Positions 45,843-57,025 of a stretch of DNA of 64,000 bases are shown piece after piece (position 1 is the stretch's first letter; each line of letters opens with the position of its first letter). A program made the translations under genes and the position numbers. The notes under the pieces were generated by a model. It made no database searches and had not been told where the DNA came from. It was given only the letters and a program-made list of their open reading frames with translations. The DNA comes from Roseivirga sp. (GTDB lineage: Bacteria; Bacteroidota; Bacteroidia; Cytophagales; Cyclobacteriaceae): assembly GCA_965230105.1 (NCBI GenBank), contig CBDDKG010000005.1, positions 188,489 to 252,488 of the forward strand, read 5' to 3'.

Positions 45843-45906
45843 ACTACTACCACTAGTGATTCTGATACTAGTACTAGTGACTCACTTATACCAGCACTAG
45901 TGATTT
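45843..45906 (+). promoter_or_regulatory. Array of three ACTAGTGA direct repeats upstream of the heme-receptor promoter
   Basis: ACTAGTGA at 45852, 45873 and 45896; palindrome ACTAGTACTAGT at 45867-45878. Confidence 0.65.
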
Positions 45907-45939: not shown

Positions 45940-45958
45940 ATTAAGAATGATTCTAAAT
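45940..45958. promoter_or_regulatory. Fur-like 19-bp palindromic operator
   Basis: ATTAAGAATGATTCTAAAT, between the -7 box and the ATG. Confidence 0.72.
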
Positions 45959-50499: not shown

Positions 50500-51036
50500 C
50501 TAATTGGCCATCACTGAATCGCTAATAATGGGAAACTCCTCTTGGATCTGTTCCAGCCAGGCATCGACACGGTCCACTGTCAGGTCTCTTTGGTTGTCTT
50601 CATCGACAGCTAAACCCATAAACCAGCCAGGCTCAAACTCTGCAACAGACTCTAGGTAGTCATAACCTTCGGTAGGCCAGACACCAATAATCTCTCCTCC
50701 ATTTTGGGCGATGACATTGCCAAGAATACCAACGCCATCAATAAAGAACTCGCCATAGCCTATCTGGTCCCCCAGGCCAAATAGAGCTACTTTTTTGCCA
50801 CTAAAATCGATGGTTTGGAAGGTCTCAAAAAAGCTCTCCCAGTCACTTTGCAAATCGCCATCAAACCAGGTAGACAGGCCAAGAATTAGTTTATCATACT
50901 GATCAAAATCCGACTTCTTCACCTTGTAAACGTCATAAACGTCTAGCATTTCCTCTCCTAATTTTTTGATGATAAGTTCAGATACATATTCAGTAGAGCC
51001 CGTATCTGAGCCATAAAACAAACCAATTTTTTCCAT
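50500..51036 (-). CDS. fldA: Long-chain flavodoxin
   Basis: IGLFYGSDTGSTE, LGLSTW..GDLQSDW, ALFGLGDQ.GY..FF.D and GL.VDEDNQ motifs. Confidence 0.95.
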   Translation of the reverse strand: MEKIGLFYGSDTGSTEYVSELIIKKLGEEMLDVYDVYKVKKSDFDQYDKLILGLSTWFDGDLQSDWESFFETFQTIDFSGKKVALFGLGDQIGYGEFFIDGVGILGNVIAQNGGEIIGVWPTEGYDYLESVAEFEPGWFMGLAVDEDNQRDLTVDRVDAWLEQIQEEFPIISDSVMAN

Positions 51037-51039
51037 GTA

Positions 51040-51390
51040 TTATTTTCTGTTTCCTGTACTGTCTTTTTGTGTTGGCAAAGCCAATAATCTACTTTCTATT
51101 ATCAGCTGAGTTTCGATGAGCAATGATTCCAATTGATTTAACTGTTCTTCTGAAAGCACGAAGTGAATGTTAAGACGCTCTATTTGGACGAGTGCCTTCT
51201 TGTTTAACAAGGTGTTGAACCACTGAAAACTTTGTTGTTGAGTTGTTATAAAGTCTTTGAAGTAAGCGATGCCAAGAGGACTAAGTTCAAGACTCATATA
51301 CTCGGACTTCACCAAAAATGAATCTCCCACATCACTGACAGCGATGCTCCCAAAAGGATTTTCATTAATGACGTGTCCAATTCTTGGCAT
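51040..51390 (-). CDS. Divergent, Cys-free DUF6686-like paralog
   Basis: Same length and the same beta-beta-beta-alpha x2 pattern as the two upstream paralogs; shares the C-terminal helix pattern (LIETQLII vs LEEAMLML). Confidence 0.5.
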   Translation of the reverse strand: MPRIGHVINENPFGSIAVSDVGDSFLVKSEYMSLELSPLGIAYFKDFITTQQQSFQWFNTLLNKKALVQIERLNIHFVLSEEQLNQLESLLIETQLIIESRLLALPTQKDSTGNRK

Positions 51391-51582
51391 TTACTTACTT
51401 TTTCCTTTGAGCCTTATCTTTTCGTTTAGGTAGGGGCACTGAATTTTGGCAATGCCCTCTAGTTCAGCATCTGTTAATGAAGTGTTGCCTGCAATAACCT
51501 CATTGATGACCCTGTCAAAATCTATATTGAGAATCGATTGACCACGATTCGAATTTGTGCCTTGAATAGATCCTTTATCCAT
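51391..51582 (-). CDS. Small (63 aa) hypothetical protein with a QCPYL motif
   Basis: ATG start; its stop abuts the next gene's ATG; fills the operon gap. Confidence 0.6.
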   Translation of the reverse strand: MDKGSIQGTNSNRGQSILNIDFDRVINEVIAGNTSLTDAELEGIAKIQCPYLNEKIRLKGKSK

Positions 51583-51631
51583 CTTCCTATATGATTTAGT
51601 ATTTAGTTTGATCCATCAAGGACTTAGTTTC

Positions 51632-51955
51632 TTAGCTAATAAGTGTTTTGTTAATCTGATCCATCAGCATTGCCTGCTCGATTTCACTTATGATGTATTG
51701 CGTTTCTTCCTGGGTGAAACCCATACCATGACCGTCAAATTTTGAATTACTGATTACAGCTTTCAGGCCTTGTGGATGCCTTGCAGTGTAGTGCTGAATG
51801 GTGAGCGATTTCAGTATCTTCAAGAATGCTCTTAGTTCTCGCCTCGTAAAGGTCATGAAGAGGTTCTTATAATTCACATTGTAGTGGTTACAACACTTAC
51901 ACCTATAAATCTGGATGTCTTCCGACTCATGCAGTATGATTATTTTGTGTGTCAT
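51632..51955 (-). CDS. DUF6686-like protein
   Basis: CKCC..Y.V.YKN motif; 4-nt overlap with the upstream paralog. Confidence 0.7.
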   Translation of the reverse strand: MTHKIIILHESEDIQIYRCKCCNHYNVNYKNLFMTFTRRELRAFLKILKSLTIQHYTARHPQGLKAVISNSKFDGHGMGFTQEETQYIISEIEQAMLMDQINKTLIS

Positions 51956-52284
51956 TCTTTTATTTCTAGAGATTCGTGCACTTGTAACATGAGCATGGCC
52001 TCTTCCAAAACCGTAACGAGTTCTCCAAACTCTTCTAGGTTAAAACAAAATTGTATGTCAGGATGGCAAGTTTCCAGTACCGTATAGTCCTGACCATTTG
52101 GAAACCTGGTGGCGTTTTTAAAGAACTCCGAACTTGTAACTCCCTGATAAAAATTGTTGAACTCCTCAATTTCAAATCCTACAAGTATGTTTTTATAGTA
52201 TAGGCCTACGCGCTTACAACACTTGCATAAGGAAATATTTAAGTGAGGGCTATCTACTAAGATTGTTGGACTACATTGACTCAT
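51952..52284 (-). CDS. DUF6686-like protein
   Basis: CKCCKRVGLYYKN and IQFCFNLEEF..L...LEEA motifs. Confidence 0.72.
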   Translation of the reverse strand: MSQCSPTILVDSPHLNISLCKCCKRVGLYYKNILVGFEIEEFNNFYQGVTSSEFFKNATRFPNGQDYTVLETCHPDIQFCFNLEEFGELVTVLEEAMLMLQVHESLEIKE

Positions 52285-52297
52285 AGTATCTGGTTTT

Positions 52298-52325
52298 AAA
52301 ACTCGCCCTCCGAAGAGAGCGAGTT
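52298..52325 (-). terminator. Intrinsic terminator inside the leader
   Basis: Minus strand aactcgctctc-ttcg-gagggcgagtt-tt. Confidence 0.7.
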
Positions 52326-52494
52326 ATTGACTGATTATATGAAGAGTATTCAATTACGTAGGAGTCACCCTTCTGATGACTCCTGCAGTAGAGTGTATCC
52401 ATCACTTACATTTTCAATTCTGTGATTTAGTGATGCATTTCCTCCTTAGTGATCTCGATCGAGGTATTTCCACTGCAACTTCTCCACTATTATT

Positions 52495-52513
52495 ATTTAG
52501 ACTAATTCTAAAC
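52495..52513. promoter_or_regulatory. Fur-like 19-bp operator
   Basis: ATTTAGACTAATTCTAAAC, just downstream of the -7 box. Confidence 0.72.
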
Positions 52514-52520
52514 AATGACA

Positions 52521-52551
52521 CAAATGTATACTCGAAGTATGACTCGGACAA
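52521..52551 (-). promoter_or_regulatory. Sigma70 promoter P2 of the leader-DUF6686-flavodoxin operon
   Basis: Minus strand TTG-N20-TACATTTG. Confidence 0.75.
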
Positions 52552-52590
52552 TCGCTAGTTGTAGTAGTATTGCTTACTACTAATAGTGAT
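52551..52590. promoter_or_regulatory. Upstream motif of P2 (ACTACTACAACTAGCGATT plus a TAGTAGTA-N5-TACTACTA inverted repeat)
   Basis: 17/19 identical to 45843-45861; perfect 8-bp inverted repeat at 52562-52582. Confidence 0.55.
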
Positions 52591-52629
52591 TTCGAAGGGA
52601 GAATGGAATAGCTTCGGAAGGCACTTGGA

Positions 52630-54834
52630 CTAGTAGCAGTCGGTCTTAATCTGACCACACATTTTCAGGTGATTCAGGCTGAGTCCGGAACCTTTTTTGA
52701 GGTGCTCAGCAAGCACCTTCTCAACTGCCTGTTGCATGCTGAGTCCACCACAAATCATAATGACATGTCCCTGGCTGAGGGCTGTGGTAATCCACCTTAA
52801 CTCTTTGCTGATGGCATCCTGAACATATTGTTTCTCATCGCCTTCTCTTGAGAAGGCTGTGATGAGCTTATTCAACTTTCCAGTGGTAACGGCTCTGTCT
52901 AATTGTTCTTGGTAGAGTTGATAAGAAGCTGTATTCCGCCCTCCCCAAAACAGTGAGATATGCTGTTTTAGTGGGCTATCATTGATCATGCCGAGAAAAG
53001 GAGCAATGCCTGTTCCATTCGCAATCATAATAACCCCCGGTGCTTCTTTAGGTAGGTGAAATGCTGGATTGGTCTTCAGATTACCCAATACCTTATTGCC
53101 AATATTTGATTCACTTAAATAGGACGAGCATATGCCCATATCATGCTTTCTGATGCTGAGCGTAATCGTTGATGCTTCGTTATCCACAGACATGGAATAC
53201 AGGCGCTCGCGGCTTTCCCCTGGAGGTATTACAGATAATAGGTCTCCCGACTGGTATGCTTTCAGTTTGCGTTTTGAAGACTTTAAAGTCAGAAGAAACG
53301 TTTGATCTGATGAGTTAGGAGAATCACATTTTTCTGTGACCAAGAATGGAAGTTGTTTCCTTTTTGGAATGGCCAGATCCTGTTCATCAATCGAGATTTT
53401 CTGGCCCGTTTTCGTTCCTAAGGCTTGAACCCAGTGCATGAACTCGTCTTTGGACTCATTGTCCACCTTGTGCAATGGTACAAGCTGAGTAGCCTCTGTT
53501 CCCTGGCTTAACTGAGCATTGGACTCAATAGCAAACTGGCAAAAGTCAGGATAGGCCGTACTCCCAAAGCCTAAAACTGCATATTGGAAGGGTTGTTGTT
53601 GCTTTGTGTTTCGAACTTTATGAATAAACTTTTTGGCATTTTCAGGCGCTTCCCCCACACCATAGGTGGAGGTCAAGACGAGTAATTGCTCCATATTCTT
53701 AAAGGACTCATATTCGTCCATGCCGGTTAGGTGTACTTTGTGTTGAAGCTTGAGCAAACTCTTTTGCAAAGCCCTGGCAAAACGCATGGTACTGCCCTGT
53801 TCGGAACCTACCAGAATGATAATTTCGCTATCATCTTTGCTGTATGGATTTATGATTTTACTCTTATCTCTTTTCAGGTAAATGGCAAAACCACTATAGA
53901 TAAAGAATAGAATACCGATTCCGGTAAGTCCCAATACAGACGCCCAAATGATAGTGCCTTCTCCCGTATGAAGGTTAAAGCTTAACTGATATGCTAGCTT
54001 TACCAAAGGGTAGTCAAGCTCACTGATCACTGTCCCATTAAACTGATTGACCAGGAGTTCCTTATTCTTAAGTTTGACTTCGTAGTATTCCTCAGGGAAT
54101 TCGGCAAATGGGAAGTTGAGTTCTCTTAGATCTTCAAGTGTGTAGGTATTGAATGGCTCAAAGGAGGATAGGGGTTGTTTCGGTTCTTCTGTGAGTCGGG
54201 TCTCATCTATTGAGTGATCGAGTGGTGGTATGACAACCAAATTGAACCGCTCCATAAATAGATAGGTGCCAGTGGCGCCAAGCACTATGATGGATAGGAT
54301 CAGCCAGCGGCTGAAGCGTGTGTGGTAATCCTTGTAGAAGTCGTTTTTAATGACTTTCGAAAAGTAATTTTTGATACCACCCTGCTTCTTAAGTATCAGA
54401 AAGAAACCGCTAAGTGCCATAAACAAGAGTATGACAGAGACCAAGCCTATGAGAAACCTTCCGATCTGACCCAGAAATAGAGATCGGTGCAAACTGCGGC
54501 TAAATTCAAAGATTCTAGGGGTTCGGATAAGCTCACCAATTTTCAGACCTGTGAATGGATCGACATAAAAAGGGGTGTCTGAATCAATGGTTTGGATAGA
54601 AACAAAGCCGTTCTTGTCACGAGAAATGTTAAGAACTTCTTCATGCTGAGCTGTAATGTTGGTGATGGCCTCACTCAATAGTAGGTCATCTGCTTTTTTT
54701 ACCTGATAGGGATGTGTCTTTTGATAGATAGGCTCAAAAGACAAGATAGCGCCTGTAATAGACGCTATCAGAAGAAATATCGTACTGATTATAGCCAGCC
54801 AGAGGTGTGTGACCCGCCACAATGAGAGTGACAT
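52630..54834 (-). CDS. PepSY-TM + flavodoxin + FAD/NAD(P)H (FNR) fusion oxidoreductase
   Basis: WRVTHLWL, SLHRSL and LHTGEG membrane His; GSEQGST and STYGVGEAP flavodoxin motifs; RLYSM, GICS, GTGIAPF, YVQD and ICGG FNR motifs. Confidence 0.88.
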   Translation of the reverse strand: MSLSLWRVTHLWLAIISTIFLLIASITGAILSFEPIYQKTHPYQVKKADDLLLSEAITNITAQHEEVLNISRDKNGFVSIQTIDSDTPFYVDPFTGLKIGELIRTPRIFEFSRSLHRSLFLGQIGRFLIGLVSVILLFMALSGFFLILKKQGGIKNYFSKVIKNDFYKDYHTRFSRWLILSIIVLGATGTYLFMERFNLVVIPPLDHSIDETRLTEEPKQPLSSFEPFNTYTLEDLRELNFPFAEFPEEYYEVKLKNKELLVNQFNGTVISELDYPLVKLAYQLSFNLHTGEGTIIWASVLGLTGIGILFFIYSGFAIYLKRDKSKIINPYSKDDSEIIILVGSEQGSTMRFARALQKSLLKLQHKVHLTGMDEYESFKNMEQLLVLTSTYGVGEAPENAKKFIHKVRNTKQQQPFQYAVLGFGSTAYPDFCQFAIESNAQLSQGTEATQLVPLHKVDNESKDEFMHWVQALGTKTGQKISIDEQDLAIPKRKQLPFLVTEKCDSPNSSDQTFLLTLKSSKRKLKAYQSGDLLSVIPPGESRERLYSMSVDNEASTITLSIRKHDMGICSSYLSESNIGNKVLGNLKTNPAFHLPKEAPGVIMIANGTGIAPFLGMINDSPLKQHISLFWGGRNTASYQLYQEQLDRAVTTGKLNKLITAFSREGDEKQYVQDAISKELRWITTALSQGHVIMICGGLSMQQAVEKVLAEHLKKGSGLSLNHLKMCGQIKTDCY

Positions 54835-56881: not shown

Positions 56882-56900
56882 ATTTAGACTAATTCCAAAC
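56882..56900. promoter_or_regulatory. Fur-like 19-bp operator
   Basis: ATTTAGACTAATTCCAAAC, 18/19 identical to 52495-52513. Confidence 0.72.
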
Positions 56901-56930: not shown

Positions 56931-56951
56931 CTGTCAATGCGGCTAATTCGA

Positions 56952-56967
56952 TCACTAGTACTAGTAT
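56952..56967 (-). promoter_or_regulatory. Upstream 16-mer ATACTAGTACTAGTGA
   Basis: Exact match to 45865-45880, in the same orientation relative to transcription. Confidence 0.65.
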
Positions 56968-57025
56968 TTTTTGCAATTGGTCTGACCCTATTTTTGGGTA
57001 GAAAGGTGTGAGGTCTTTAGAAACA

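What the first reader, a model, noticed from the sequence alone, without database searches (positions are those of the whole stretch)
52298..52515. Structured ~220-nt leader with a UUCG terminator 14 nt before the first ORF
Seen: an 11-bp stem with a UUCG loop and a short U4 tract (52325-52298), an 8-bp AGGAGTCA/TGACTCCT hairpin (52360-52384), a CTCGATCGAG palindrome (52454-52463) and an ATCACTAA repeat (52427, 52446) that shares TAGTGAT with the promoter motif. Inference: the weak U-tract would give an abundant short RNA plus partial read-through, consistent with an sRNA, metal-sensing riboswitch or attenuator. I do not recognise it as a known Rfam family.
Basis: partly seen in the sequence, partly recalled or inferred. 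Interest (0 to 1): 0.7.

Follow-up and report, generated by a model that had tools for sequence, protein, structure and literature searches.

The report
Conserved structured leader before iron-starvation operon
A roughly 230-base untranslated RNA leader, with two conserved hairpins and a terminator-like hairpin just before the first gene, separates an iron-regulated promoter from a flavodoxin operon in a marine Roseivirga; it is a real, previously unlisted RNA structure found in only a few close relatives, and its function is untested.

Summary
The leader folds far better than shuffles (z = -5.0). It runs from a Bacteroidota-type promoter (TACATTTG, 52528-52521) with a Fur-like palindrome (52512-52496) to the ATG at 52284.

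The genome has seven such promoter-plus-box sites. Six sit 3-26 nt from their ATG; this one sits 211 nt away.

Only four independent loci carry the leader: this genome, two other Roseivirga species and one metagenome contig. All share hairpin P0, an invariant ACUC linker, hairpin P1 and hairpin T2.
- P1 has a conserved CC-AGAWG-GG top, and 7 of its 12 pairs show compensatory changes.
- T2 lies 15-20 nt before the ATG. Its sequence differs between loci, and 5 of 9 pairs are compensatory.

The module always sits directly before the first DUF6686 gene, whatever lies upstream. Rfam has no match. The palindrome and the ATCACTAA repeat are not conserved.

Best reading: a cis-acting attenuator with a leaky terminator and an unknown effector. 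A Fur-controlled small RNA and a passive structural element remain open. An antiterminator pairing was not significant.

The parts
52549..52552 (-). Putative -33 element (ATTG), 20 nt upstream of the -7 box. It overlaps the ACTAGCGAT upstream motif.
   Evidence: Read. The same (A/G)TTG-N20-TAnnTTTG layout is seen at the ankyrin-operon promoter and in L059. Inference from the known Bacteroidota promoter consensus.
52521..52528 (-). Bacteroidota-type -7 promoter box TACATTTG (TAnnTTTG). The predicted transcription start is about 52516-52513.
   Evidence: The same box-plus-palindrome layout occurs at 7 sites in the genome. The transcription start is inferred, not measured.
52496..52512 (-). Fur-like 7-1-7 palindrome TTTAGAATTAGTCTAAA, just downstream of the predicted start.
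   Evidence: 3 sites in the window against 0.43 expected; genome-wide it precedes TonB-dependent receptors, hmuR, the ankyrin/PepSY operon, a lipoprotein and SufB; conserved in 23 of the 60 relatives searched; five Fur-family genes in the genome.
52436..52495 (-). Variable 5' part of the leader. It contains the CTCGATCGAG palindrome and the first ATCACTAA copy.
   Evidence: Not alignable with the leaders of L059, G006 or G031. It serves as an internal control showing that unconstrained sequence has diverged beyond recognition.
52400..52435 (-). Hairpin P0: CATCACT (52435-52429) pairs with AGTGATG (52406-52400), with a 22-nt loop containing AUCACAGAA.
   Evidence: Predicted in the minimum-energy fold of all four leaders. 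CAU/AUG is invariant and some pairs change on both sides. The register differs in L059 and support is moderate.
52391..52399 (-). Linker GAUACACUC between P0 and P1. ACUC (52394-52391) is invariant in all four loci.
   Evidence: Alignments.
52360..52384 (-). Hairpin P1: AGGAGUCAUC-AGAAG-GGUGACUCCU, with a conserved apical CC/UC-AGAWG-GG.
   Evidence: 12 pairs, 7 with changes on both sides, 93.8% of cells paired, 0 of 500 shuffles as good, and 40-54% paired when the partner is slid. It is more stable than its reverse complement in all four loci (marginally so in G006; G031 -16.1 vs -7.4). It is unique in the genome.
52338..52343 (-). Block C, UUCAUA. It is conserved in this genome, G006 and G031 but not in L059, and is complementary to the start-codon region UAUGAG.
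   Evidence: There is no covariation, so any pairing role is speculative.
52300..52325 (-). Hairpin T2: 11-bp stem with a UUCG loop, -17.3 kcal/mol. A terminator-like hairpin.
   Evidence: A hairpin sits at the same place, 15-20 nt before the ATG, in G006, G031, L059 and G012, each with a different sequence. 5 of 9 aligned pairs change on both sides.
52292..52301 (-). U4 run (52301-52298) followed by AAAACC (52297-52292).
   Evidence: UUUUAAAACC is shared with G006, and AAACC/UAACC with G031 and G012, but it is absent in L059. U4 is short for this genome.
50500..52284 (-). Downstream operon: DUF6686 (51952-52284), DUF6686 (51632-51955), a 63-aa ORF (51391-51582), DUF6686 (51040-51390) and flavodoxin (50500-51036). 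Its own terminator hairpin lies at about 50436-50405.
   Evidence: The same operon follows the leader in L059 and in the G006 population.

Best explanation
The stretch is the 5' leader of the DUF6686-flavodoxin mRNA and most likely acts in cis as a transcription attenuator.

Proposed sequence of events:
1. Under iron starvation a Fur-family repressor leaves the palindrome at 52512-52496 and transcription starts near 52514 (inferred).
2. RNA polymerase then transcribes a conserved module made of hairpin P0, the ACUC linker and hairpin P1. About 35 nt further on it transcribes hairpin T2 with a short U run, 15 nt before the ATG.
3. T2 stops a share of the transcripts and the rest read through into the operon. 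The leader therefore sets, and possibly modulates, how much of the Fur-derepressed transcription reaches the DUF6686 genes and flavodoxin.
4. P0-P1 is the part under sequence selection, in particular the P1 loop CC-AGAWG-GG. I take it as the docking site for an unidentified effector (protein, RNA or ligand) that shifts the balance between termination and read-through.

Shown: the structures, their conservation and covariation, their fixed position before DUF6686-1, and the exceptional leader length.
Inferred: the transcription start, Fur control, termination at T2, and any regulation of it.
For: - Fold z-score of -5.0.
- P1 has 7 of 12 compensatory pairs. P0b+P1+T2 together have 11 of 29, with 94.8% of cells paired against 41-47% when the partner is slid.
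- Every hairpin is more stable on this strand than on its complement.
- T2 is kept as a hairpin 15-20 nt before the ATG in five species although its sequence differs completely.
- The module sits directly before DUF6686-1 whatever lies upstream: PepSY-FNR here and in G006, an HmuY-like gene in G031, a LuxR-type regulator in L059. This fits a cis element tied to that gene.
- In G031 no promoter was recognised in the short gap between the upstream gene and P0, so there the module probably lies inside a longer transcript.
- Of 7 promoter-plus-Fur-box sites in the genome, six are 3-26 nt from their ATG and only this one is 211 nt away.
- No TAnnTTTG box lies between P1 and the ATG, so operon transcripts must pass through T2.
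- No terminator-like hairpin lies between the upstream gene and the promoter, so its transcripts would also run into P1/T2.
Against:
- T2 has no U tract in L059, and P1 carries a U-rich tail in three of the four loci. Termination at T2 is therefore not uniformly supported.
- The only antiterminator candidate, the P1 loop and 3' arm pairing with the T2 5' arm, is not significant. Percentiles against this genome's terminator arms were 0.13, 0.04, 0.11 and 0.46.
- Only four independent sequences exist. P1 + T2 is far more stable than any alternative fold, so a switch would need an outside factor for which there is no candidate.
- Other Roseivirga species run the same operon without this leader, so it is dispensable.
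Confidence: 0.45

Rival explanations
1. The main product is a Fur-controlled small RNA that acts in trans. It would run from about 52514 to the T2 terminator (about 215 nt), or to P1 in species where P1 has the U tail. P0-linker-P1 would be its functional body, and the operon would be expressed only by read-through. It would be a functional counterpart of RyhB, FsrA or the Bacteroides IroR.
For: - A Fur-like box promoter is followed by hairpins and a terminator-like end.
- Single-stranded segments are conserved: ACUC, the P1 loop and the P0 loop.
- P1 has U-rich tails in G031, G006 and L059.
- IroR of B. thetaiotaomicron is iron-induced and is described as a 5' hairpin, a stem-loop and a terminator (bioRxiv 10.1101/2025.09.08.672848). 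That is a similar layout.
Against: - The module is never found apart from DUF6686-1.
- In G031 no promoter of its own was recognised upstream of the module.
- The region from the start to P0 is not conserved in sequence or length: about 80 nt here and about 240 nt in L059.
- A genome-wide duplex scan of four leader segments against 3980 start regions gave no recognisable iron-protein targets; the top hits were not annotated with family searches.
- No Rfam sRNA family matches.
Confidence: 0.22
2. The hairpins are passive and sense nothing. P1 and T2 would be constitutive partial terminators or insulators for upstream transcription, or processing and stability hairpins that protect the 3' end of upstream RNA and the 5' end of the operon mRNA.
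For: - The upstream gene runs in the same direction in all five species and has no terminator of its own here.
- T2 behaves like an ordinary terminator in evolution: the structure is kept and the sequence is free.
- Many genes in this genome have a terminator 10-25 nt before the next ATG.
- Covariance-model hits elsewhere in the genus with similar loops are ordinary gene-end terminators.
Against: - It does not explain why the P1 loop, the ACUC linker and P0 are conserved while neighbouring leader sequence is scrambled.
- It does not explain why a dedicated Fur-box promoter in this genome and in L059 sits upstream of both hairpins.
Confidence: 0.2
3. The leader is a small-molecule or metal riboswitch. 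P0-P1 would be an aptamer for iron, heme, FMN or a related ligand, and T2 would be its expression platform.
For: The layout, a conserved structured domain followed by a terminator hairpin, is typical of Bacteroidota riboswitches, which rarely use ribosome-binding-site occlusion. The operon is tied to iron and flavin.
Against: - No Rfam match, including the FMN, NiCo/czcD and Mn families.
- Only two simple hairpins, with no supported junction or pseudoknot.
- One gene context in four loci of one genus. It was absent from 33 other Roseivirga species and from 200 genomes of the family.
- The antiterminator is not significant.
Confidence: 0.08
4. The leader works by leader-peptide attenuation. A short upstream ORF (uORF) starting at the conserved AUG (52402) inside the P0 3' arm would be translated through P1 and T2 and control terminator formation.
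For: The AUG is conserved in three of the four loci. In this genome the uORF runs through P1 and T2 and overlaps the ORF1 start.
Against: - L059 has GUG/AAC in place of AUG/GAU.
- The reading frame through P1 differs between this genome and the others.
- The peptides are unrelated, with lengths of 43, 22 and 37 codons, and an in-frame fusion in G031. In G006 the uORF stops before T2.
- In codon 3 the third base is conserved while bases 1 and 2 vary, which is the opposite of a coding pattern.
Confidence: 0.03

Closest known systems
Terminator-based 5' leader attenuators (riboswitch expression platforms, protein-dependent attenuators such as the PyrR, TRAP and LicT/RAT systems)
   Same: A long leader between promoter and first gene. 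A conserved structured sensor-like region is followed by a GC-rich hairpin with a U run directly before the coding sequence. It is tied to one operon.
   Different: No effector is known and no statistically supported antiterminator was found. There is no match to any curated family. The U tract is short here and missing in one ortholog.
Fur-repressed iron-sparing sRNAs (RyhB, PrrF, FsrA, IsaR1) and the iron-induced sRNA IroR (BTnc022) of Bacteroides thetaiotaomicron
   Same: An iron-type promoter drives a non-coding structured RNA that ends in a terminator-like hairpin. IroR is described as a 5' hairpin, a stem-loop and a terminator.
   Different: This RNA is fused to an operon as its leader, and no recognisable iron-protein target complementarity was found. 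The RyhB, PrrF and FsrA models in Rfam do not match.
Ordinary intrinsic terminators of this genus
   Same: T2 and, in three species, P1 are GC-rich hairpins with U-rich tails. Covariance-model hits with CCAGAWGGG-like loops elsewhere in Roseivirga are gene-end terminators.
   Different: The P1 loop and flanks are conserved across species, and P1 lacks a U tract in this genome. T2 sits 15 nt before an ATG with no promoter after it. Typical terminators here carry 6-8 U.
Lambda nut / rrn boxA-boxB antitermination sites
   Same: A short linear motif (ACUCUUUA in L059) lies a few bases before a hairpin with a purine-rich pentaloop, upstream of a terminator.
   Different: Only ACUC is invariant. The U run of boxA is absent here and in G006. 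The loop register differs from GAAGA/GAAAA. The probable boxA of this genome's rrn leader (GUUCUUUGA) is different. I rejected this comparison.

Membership tests
Any Rfam 15 family (riboswitches, leaders, sRNAs) | Covariance-model score at or above the family's gathering threshold | tested here: not met
   No hits at gathering threshold in the 64-kb window. The best sub-threshold hit was 18.3 bits against a cut-off of 50, and it matched only the terminator hairpin. Nothing consistent was found in the orthologous loci.
Intrinsic (Rho-independent) terminator | GC-rich stem-loop immediately followed by a U-rich tract | tested here: inconclusive
   The stem is strong (-17.3 kcal/mol, UUCG loop). 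The tract is only U4 followed by A4, whereas the commonest count after hairpins downstream of long ORFs is 7 T in 8 nt. The simple scan did not list it. The tract is U6 in G006 and absent in L059.
Intrinsic (Rho-independent) terminator | RNA 3' ends map to the U tract | not testable with these tools
Riboswitch (generic) | Conserved aptamer with a covariation-supported multi-helix architecture | tested here: inconclusive
   P1 is well supported and P0 moderately. No junction or pseudoknot is supported. Only four sequences are available.
Riboswitch (generic) | Found upstream of several functionally linked genes across many lineages | tested here: not met
   Found in 3 of 36 Roseivirga genomes, none of the 200 other family genomes, and 1 metagenome contig, always before DUF6686-1.
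Riboswitch / attenuator | A mutually exclusive antiterminator that competes with the terminator | tested here: inconclusive
   The best partner of the T2 5' arm lies in the P1 loop and 3' arm in all four loci. The energies are not unusual compared with this genome's terminator arms (0.13, 0.04, 0.11, 0.46).
Fur-regulated trans-acting sRNA | Promoter with an iron-repressor operator | tested here: met
   The palindrome is shared with TonB-receptor, hmuR, SufB and PepSY operon promoters, and Fur-family genes are present. Binding itself is inferred.
Fur-regulated trans-acting sRNA | A discrete stable transcript with complementarity to mRNAs of iron-using proteins | tested here: inconclusive
   The transcript could not be tested. 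The duplex scan found no recognisable iron-related targets, but it covered one genome only, used crude gene calls, and its top hits were not annotated.
Leader-peptide attenuator | A conserved translated uORF with regulatory codons overlapping the first stem | tested here: not met
   Start codon, frame, length and peptide are not conserved.
Iron-responsive element (IRE) bound by apo-aconitase | CAGUGN hexaloop with a C1-G5 pair on a 5-bp upper stem, and a bulged C | tested here: not met
   The loop is C-AGAAG-G or C-AGAUG-G. There is no bulged C and no C1-G5 geometry (read).

The most novel reading that the evidence does not exclude
The leader would be a Fur-controlled riboregulator of the iron-starvation response in Cytophagales. 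It would be a roughly 215-nt RNA (P0-ACUC-P1-T2) released by termination at T2 that acts in trans. The co-transcribed DUF6686 proteins, whose beta4-alpha-beta3-alpha fold shows faint Whirly/PC4-like similarity, would be its protein partners, analogous to FsrA with FbpA/B/C in Bacillus. Flavodoxin would be the iron-sparing output.
Probability: 0.1. Interest if true: 0.7.

Novelty: new member of a known kind. Interest (0 to 1): 0.4.

Why it matters
RNA-level control of iron homeostasis in Bacteroidota is almost unexplored. The first iron-responsive sRNA in the phylum, IroR, was reported only in a 2025 preprint.

This locus offers a compact, testable case in a marine member of the phylum. It pairs an iron-type promoter with a covariation-supported RNA module and a terminator-like hairpin, placed in front of flavodoxin and three uncharacterised Cys-rich DUF6686 proteins.

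If the module gates read-through, it adds a second control layer to Fur regulation. If it is released as an sRNA, it would be a new iron riboregulator.

Its value is limited by its very narrow distribution: four loci in one genus.

Tried and rejected
- **Strict pattern search.** A search for the P1 pattern across 401 genomes of the order gave 10 hits against 7 for the reversed-pattern control. None had the flanking motifs.
- **Covariance model R1.** In the genus it found only the three known loci plus ordinary terminators. Across 201 genomes of the family the one marginal hit was a gene-end terminator.
- **More orthologs.** Two metagenome scans, two protein searches and a contig look-up added only L059 and near-identical copies of the G006 leader.
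- **Antiterminator test.** Not significant.
- **Trans-target scan.** It returned mostly spurious short ORFs and no recognisable iron genes.
- **BoxA/boxB (nut-like) reading.** Rejected after comparing the four linkers and the genome's own rrn leader.
- **IRE reading.** Rejected on loop geometry.
- **Leader peptide.** Rejected on lack of conservation.
- **Internal promoter at T2.** In this genome the best 8-mer, GAGTTTTA, has two mismatches to TAnnTTTG. L059 has TCTATTTG in the T2 loop followed by half a Fur box, so a second promoter there cannot be excluded.
- **Other pairings.** A pseudoknot between the P1 loop and block C, the ACUC:GAGU long-range helix proposed by RNAalifold, and block C pairing with the start codon are possible. 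All involve invariant or non-covarying bases, so they remain unsupported.
- **DUF6686 structure search.** The model is confident (pLDDT 90.9) but has no significant PDB match.

Full report
**Where it is.** The finding lies on the minus strand between a 734-aa PepSY_TM-flavodoxin-FNR fusion gene (52630-54834) and a five-gene operon. The operon encodes DUF6686 (51952-52284), DUF6686 (51632-51955), a 63-aa ORF, DUF6686 (51040-51390) and flavodoxin (50500-51036). The genome belongs to the genus Roseivirga: a same-genus relative is titled 'uncultured Roseivirga sp.', and the order contains Amoebophilaceae-sized genomes.

**The observation.**
- T2 is AACUCGCUCUC-UUCG-GAGGGCGAGUU at 52325-52300, followed by UU and AAAACC. 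The ATG is at 52284.
- The AGGAGUCA/UGACUCCU hairpin extends to 10 bp with an AGAAG loop (P1, 52384-52360).
- The leader folds at -69.9 kcal/mol against -48.2 +/- 4.3 for shuffles (z = -5.0).
- The CTCGATCGAG palindrome and the ATCACTAA repeat are at chance level by my arithmetic. They are not conserved in the orthologous leaders.

**Promoter and iron control (inferred).**
- The -7 box TACATTTG (52528-52521) and an ATTG 20 nt upstream fit the Bacteroidota promoter consensus. The palindrome TTTAGAATTAGTCTAAA (52512-52496) follows directly.
- This palindrome occurs three times in the window against 0.43 expected.
- Genome-wide, seven sites combine TAnnTTTG with the palindrome. They precede an hmuR-type receptor, another TonB-dependent receptor, a lipoprotein, SufB, the ankyrin/DUF2271/PepSY operon, a membrane protein and this operon. 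That is an iron-starvation regulon.
- The genome has five Fur-family genes.
- In the six other sites the palindrome ends 3-26 nt before the ATG. Here the distance is 211 nt. The long leader is therefore exceptional within its own regulon.

**Conservation.**
- Ten Roseivirga genomes, this one included, encode a DUF6686-1 ortholog, and their upstream regions fall into three classes.
  - Some have the Fur-box promoter with a short untranslated region (G018, G035).
  - Some have the gene directly behind an upstream gene (G027, G022, G003).
  - Two others (G006, G031) have a leader like the one here.
- A metagenome contig (L059, ORF1 60% identical) has the same operon, the same promoter and palindrome, and a leader of about 365 nt.
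- The near-identical copies of the G006 leader found in metagenomes add nothing. Further protein searches found no more close orthologs. Four independent examples is therefore the total.
- In the four-way alignment the stretch from the start to P0 cannot be aligned. The following blocks are conserved:
  - P0
  - the linker AYACUC, with ACUC invariant
  - P1, with an apical YC-AGAWG-GG
  - UUCAUA, in three of the four
  - T2
  - UUAAAACC, in three of the four
- G012 keeps only a T2-like hairpin and UAACC.

**Covariation.**
- On the four P1 sequences, 7 of 12 pairs change on both sides and 93.8% of cells are paired. No shuffle of 500 reaches this, and sliding the partner drops pairing to 40-54%.
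- On the RNAalifold consensus of the P0-to-ATG region, 11 of 29 pairs are compensatory. That includes 5 of 10 in P1 and 5 of 9 in T2, with 94.8% of cells paired against 41-47% when slid.
- P0 is weaker, and its register differs in L059.
- Every hairpin is more stable than its reverse complement. Examples are G031 P1 at -16.1 vs -7.4 and G012 T2 at -15.4 vs -7.7. The G-U pairs therefore point to an RNA transcribed in the direction of the operon.

**Distribution.**
- A covariance model of linker plus P1 finds one copy in this genome and true copies in only 3 of 36 Roseivirga genomes.
- Its other hits are ordinary gene-end terminators with similar loops.
- It finds nothing in 200 other genomes of the family.
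- Rfam has no match in the window or in the orthologous loci.

**Is T2 a terminator?**
- Only 0.9% of 2411 proxy genes have so stable a structure at -55..-9. Most of those are canonical terminators of the upstream gene carrying 6-8 U.
- Among hairpins within 80 nt downstream of long ORFs, the commonest count is 7 T in the 8 nt after the stem. T2 has 4.
- The tract is U6 in G006, U4-A-UU in G031 and absent in L059. In G031, G006 and L059 it is P1 that has a U-rich tail.
- No TAnnTTTG box lies between P1 and the ATG here, so operon transcripts must cross T2.
- No terminator-like hairpin lies between the PepSY gene and the promoter, so transcripts of the upstream operon also run into P1/T2.

**Mechanism.**
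- The module sits directly before DUF6686-1 in four different upstream contexts: PepSY-FNR twice, an HmuY-like gene in G031 and a LuxR-type regulator in L059.
- In G031 no promoter was recognised in the short gap before P0, so there the module probably lies within a longer transcript. This fits a cis-acting element best.
- I therefore favour an attenuator. T2 prematurely ends a share of the Fur-derepressed transcripts, and the conserved P0-ACUC-P1 region is the handle for an unknown effector.
- The classical 1:2 / 2:3 / 3:4 topology is possible. The best partner of the T2 5' arm lies in the P1 loop and 3' arm in all four loci.
- However, the energies are not unusual against this genome's own terminator arms (0.13, 0.04, 0.11, 0.46). 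I do not claim this topology.

**Rivals.**
- A Fur-controlled sRNA is possible. Iron-induced IroR of B. thetaiotaomicron has a similar layout: 5' hairpin, stem-loop, terminator. However, a target scan found no recognisable iron-related targets, and the module is never separate from the operon.
- A passive role as terminator, insulator or stabiliser explains T2. It does not explain the conserved P1 loop and linker.
- A small-molecule riboswitch is unlikely given the simple architecture and narrow spread.
- A leader peptide is rejected. Start codon, frame and peptide are not conserved.
- BoxA/boxB and IRE resemblances were examined and rejected (and reading of the sequences).

**Context of the operon.** An AlphaFold model of DUF6686-1 is confident (pLDDT 90.9) with a beta4-alpha-beta3-alpha layout. 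It has no significant PDB neighbour. The weak, non-significant hits include Whirly-like MRP1/2 and SsgB, and PC4/Sub1. The protein is acidic and has conserved Cys and His residues. No paper mentions DUF6686.

**Verdict.** This is a real, covariation-supported RNA leader that is not in Rfam and is specific to a small Roseivirga clade. The terminator, sRNA and riboswitch readings remain untested. The conserved core is P0-P1-T2, not the palindrome or the repeat. Novelty: a new member of a known kind (structured attenuator-type leader). Interest is moderate.

Noticed in passing
window 45941-45957, 52496-52512 and 56883-56899; genome contigs C2, C6, C11 and C14: A 7-1-7 palindrome TTTAGAAT-n-ATTCTAAA lies 5-8 nt after a TAnnTTTG box at seven promoters. 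These precede TonB receptors, hmuR, SufB, a lipoprotein, the ankyrin/PepSY operon and the flavodoxin operon. It is a candidate Fur-family operator of Cytophagales, and the genome has five Fur-family genes.
   Followed up: partly
window 52553-52600, 56950-56970 and 45850-45905; L059:455-495: ACTAG(T/C)GAT / ACTACTAC repeats overlap the -33 region of the three iron promoters. In L059, G018, G035 and G020 the gene directly upstream of this motif is a LuxR/GerE-type response regulator, which makes it a candidate binder.
   Followed up: partly
genome-wide (e.g. C25:175165, C11:237590, C5:108510 in genome.fa): Several genes have a canonical terminator of the upstream gene whose U tract runs into a TAnnTTTG box ending only 4-6 nt before the ATG. 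This implies leaderless or near-leaderless mRNAs and overlapping terminator-promoter modules in this organism.
   Followed up: no
window 51040-52284: A confident AlphaFold model of DUF6686-1 (pLDDT 90.9) has a beta4-alpha-beta3-alpha layout. It has no significant PDB match, only faint Whirly/PC4-like similarity. Conserved residues are C4, C20, C23, C73-H74 and C80. The third paralog lacks the Cys motif.
   Followed up: partly
genome contig C17, about 250 nt upstream of the 16S rRNA gene: The rrn leader contains GAUACUCUUGUUAGAAGGAGUC, which resembles GAUACACUCU...CAGGAGUC and AGAAGG of this leader. This may be chance.
   Followed up: no
L027 (G012), 80 nt upstream of its DUF6686-1 ATG: A short leader carries a duplicated GGGGUUUCG and a CCCCG segment that could pair with either copy. 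The second copy forms the 3' arm of the T2-like hairpin, so this is a possible independent attenuator design.
   Followed up: no
L059:860-897: The loop of the T2 hairpin reads TCTATTTG (5 of 6 matches to the -7 box) and is followed by TAATGAAATTCTCAA (a right half of the Fur-like box) and the ATG. This may be a relic or a second promoter directly before the gene.
   Followed up: no
window 52437-52450: AAGGAGGAAAUG-CAU-CAC-UAA: a Shine-Dalgarno-like AGGAGG lies before a 3-codon mini-ORF (Met-His-His-stop) in the variable part of the leader. It is not conserved in the orthologs.
   Followed up: no
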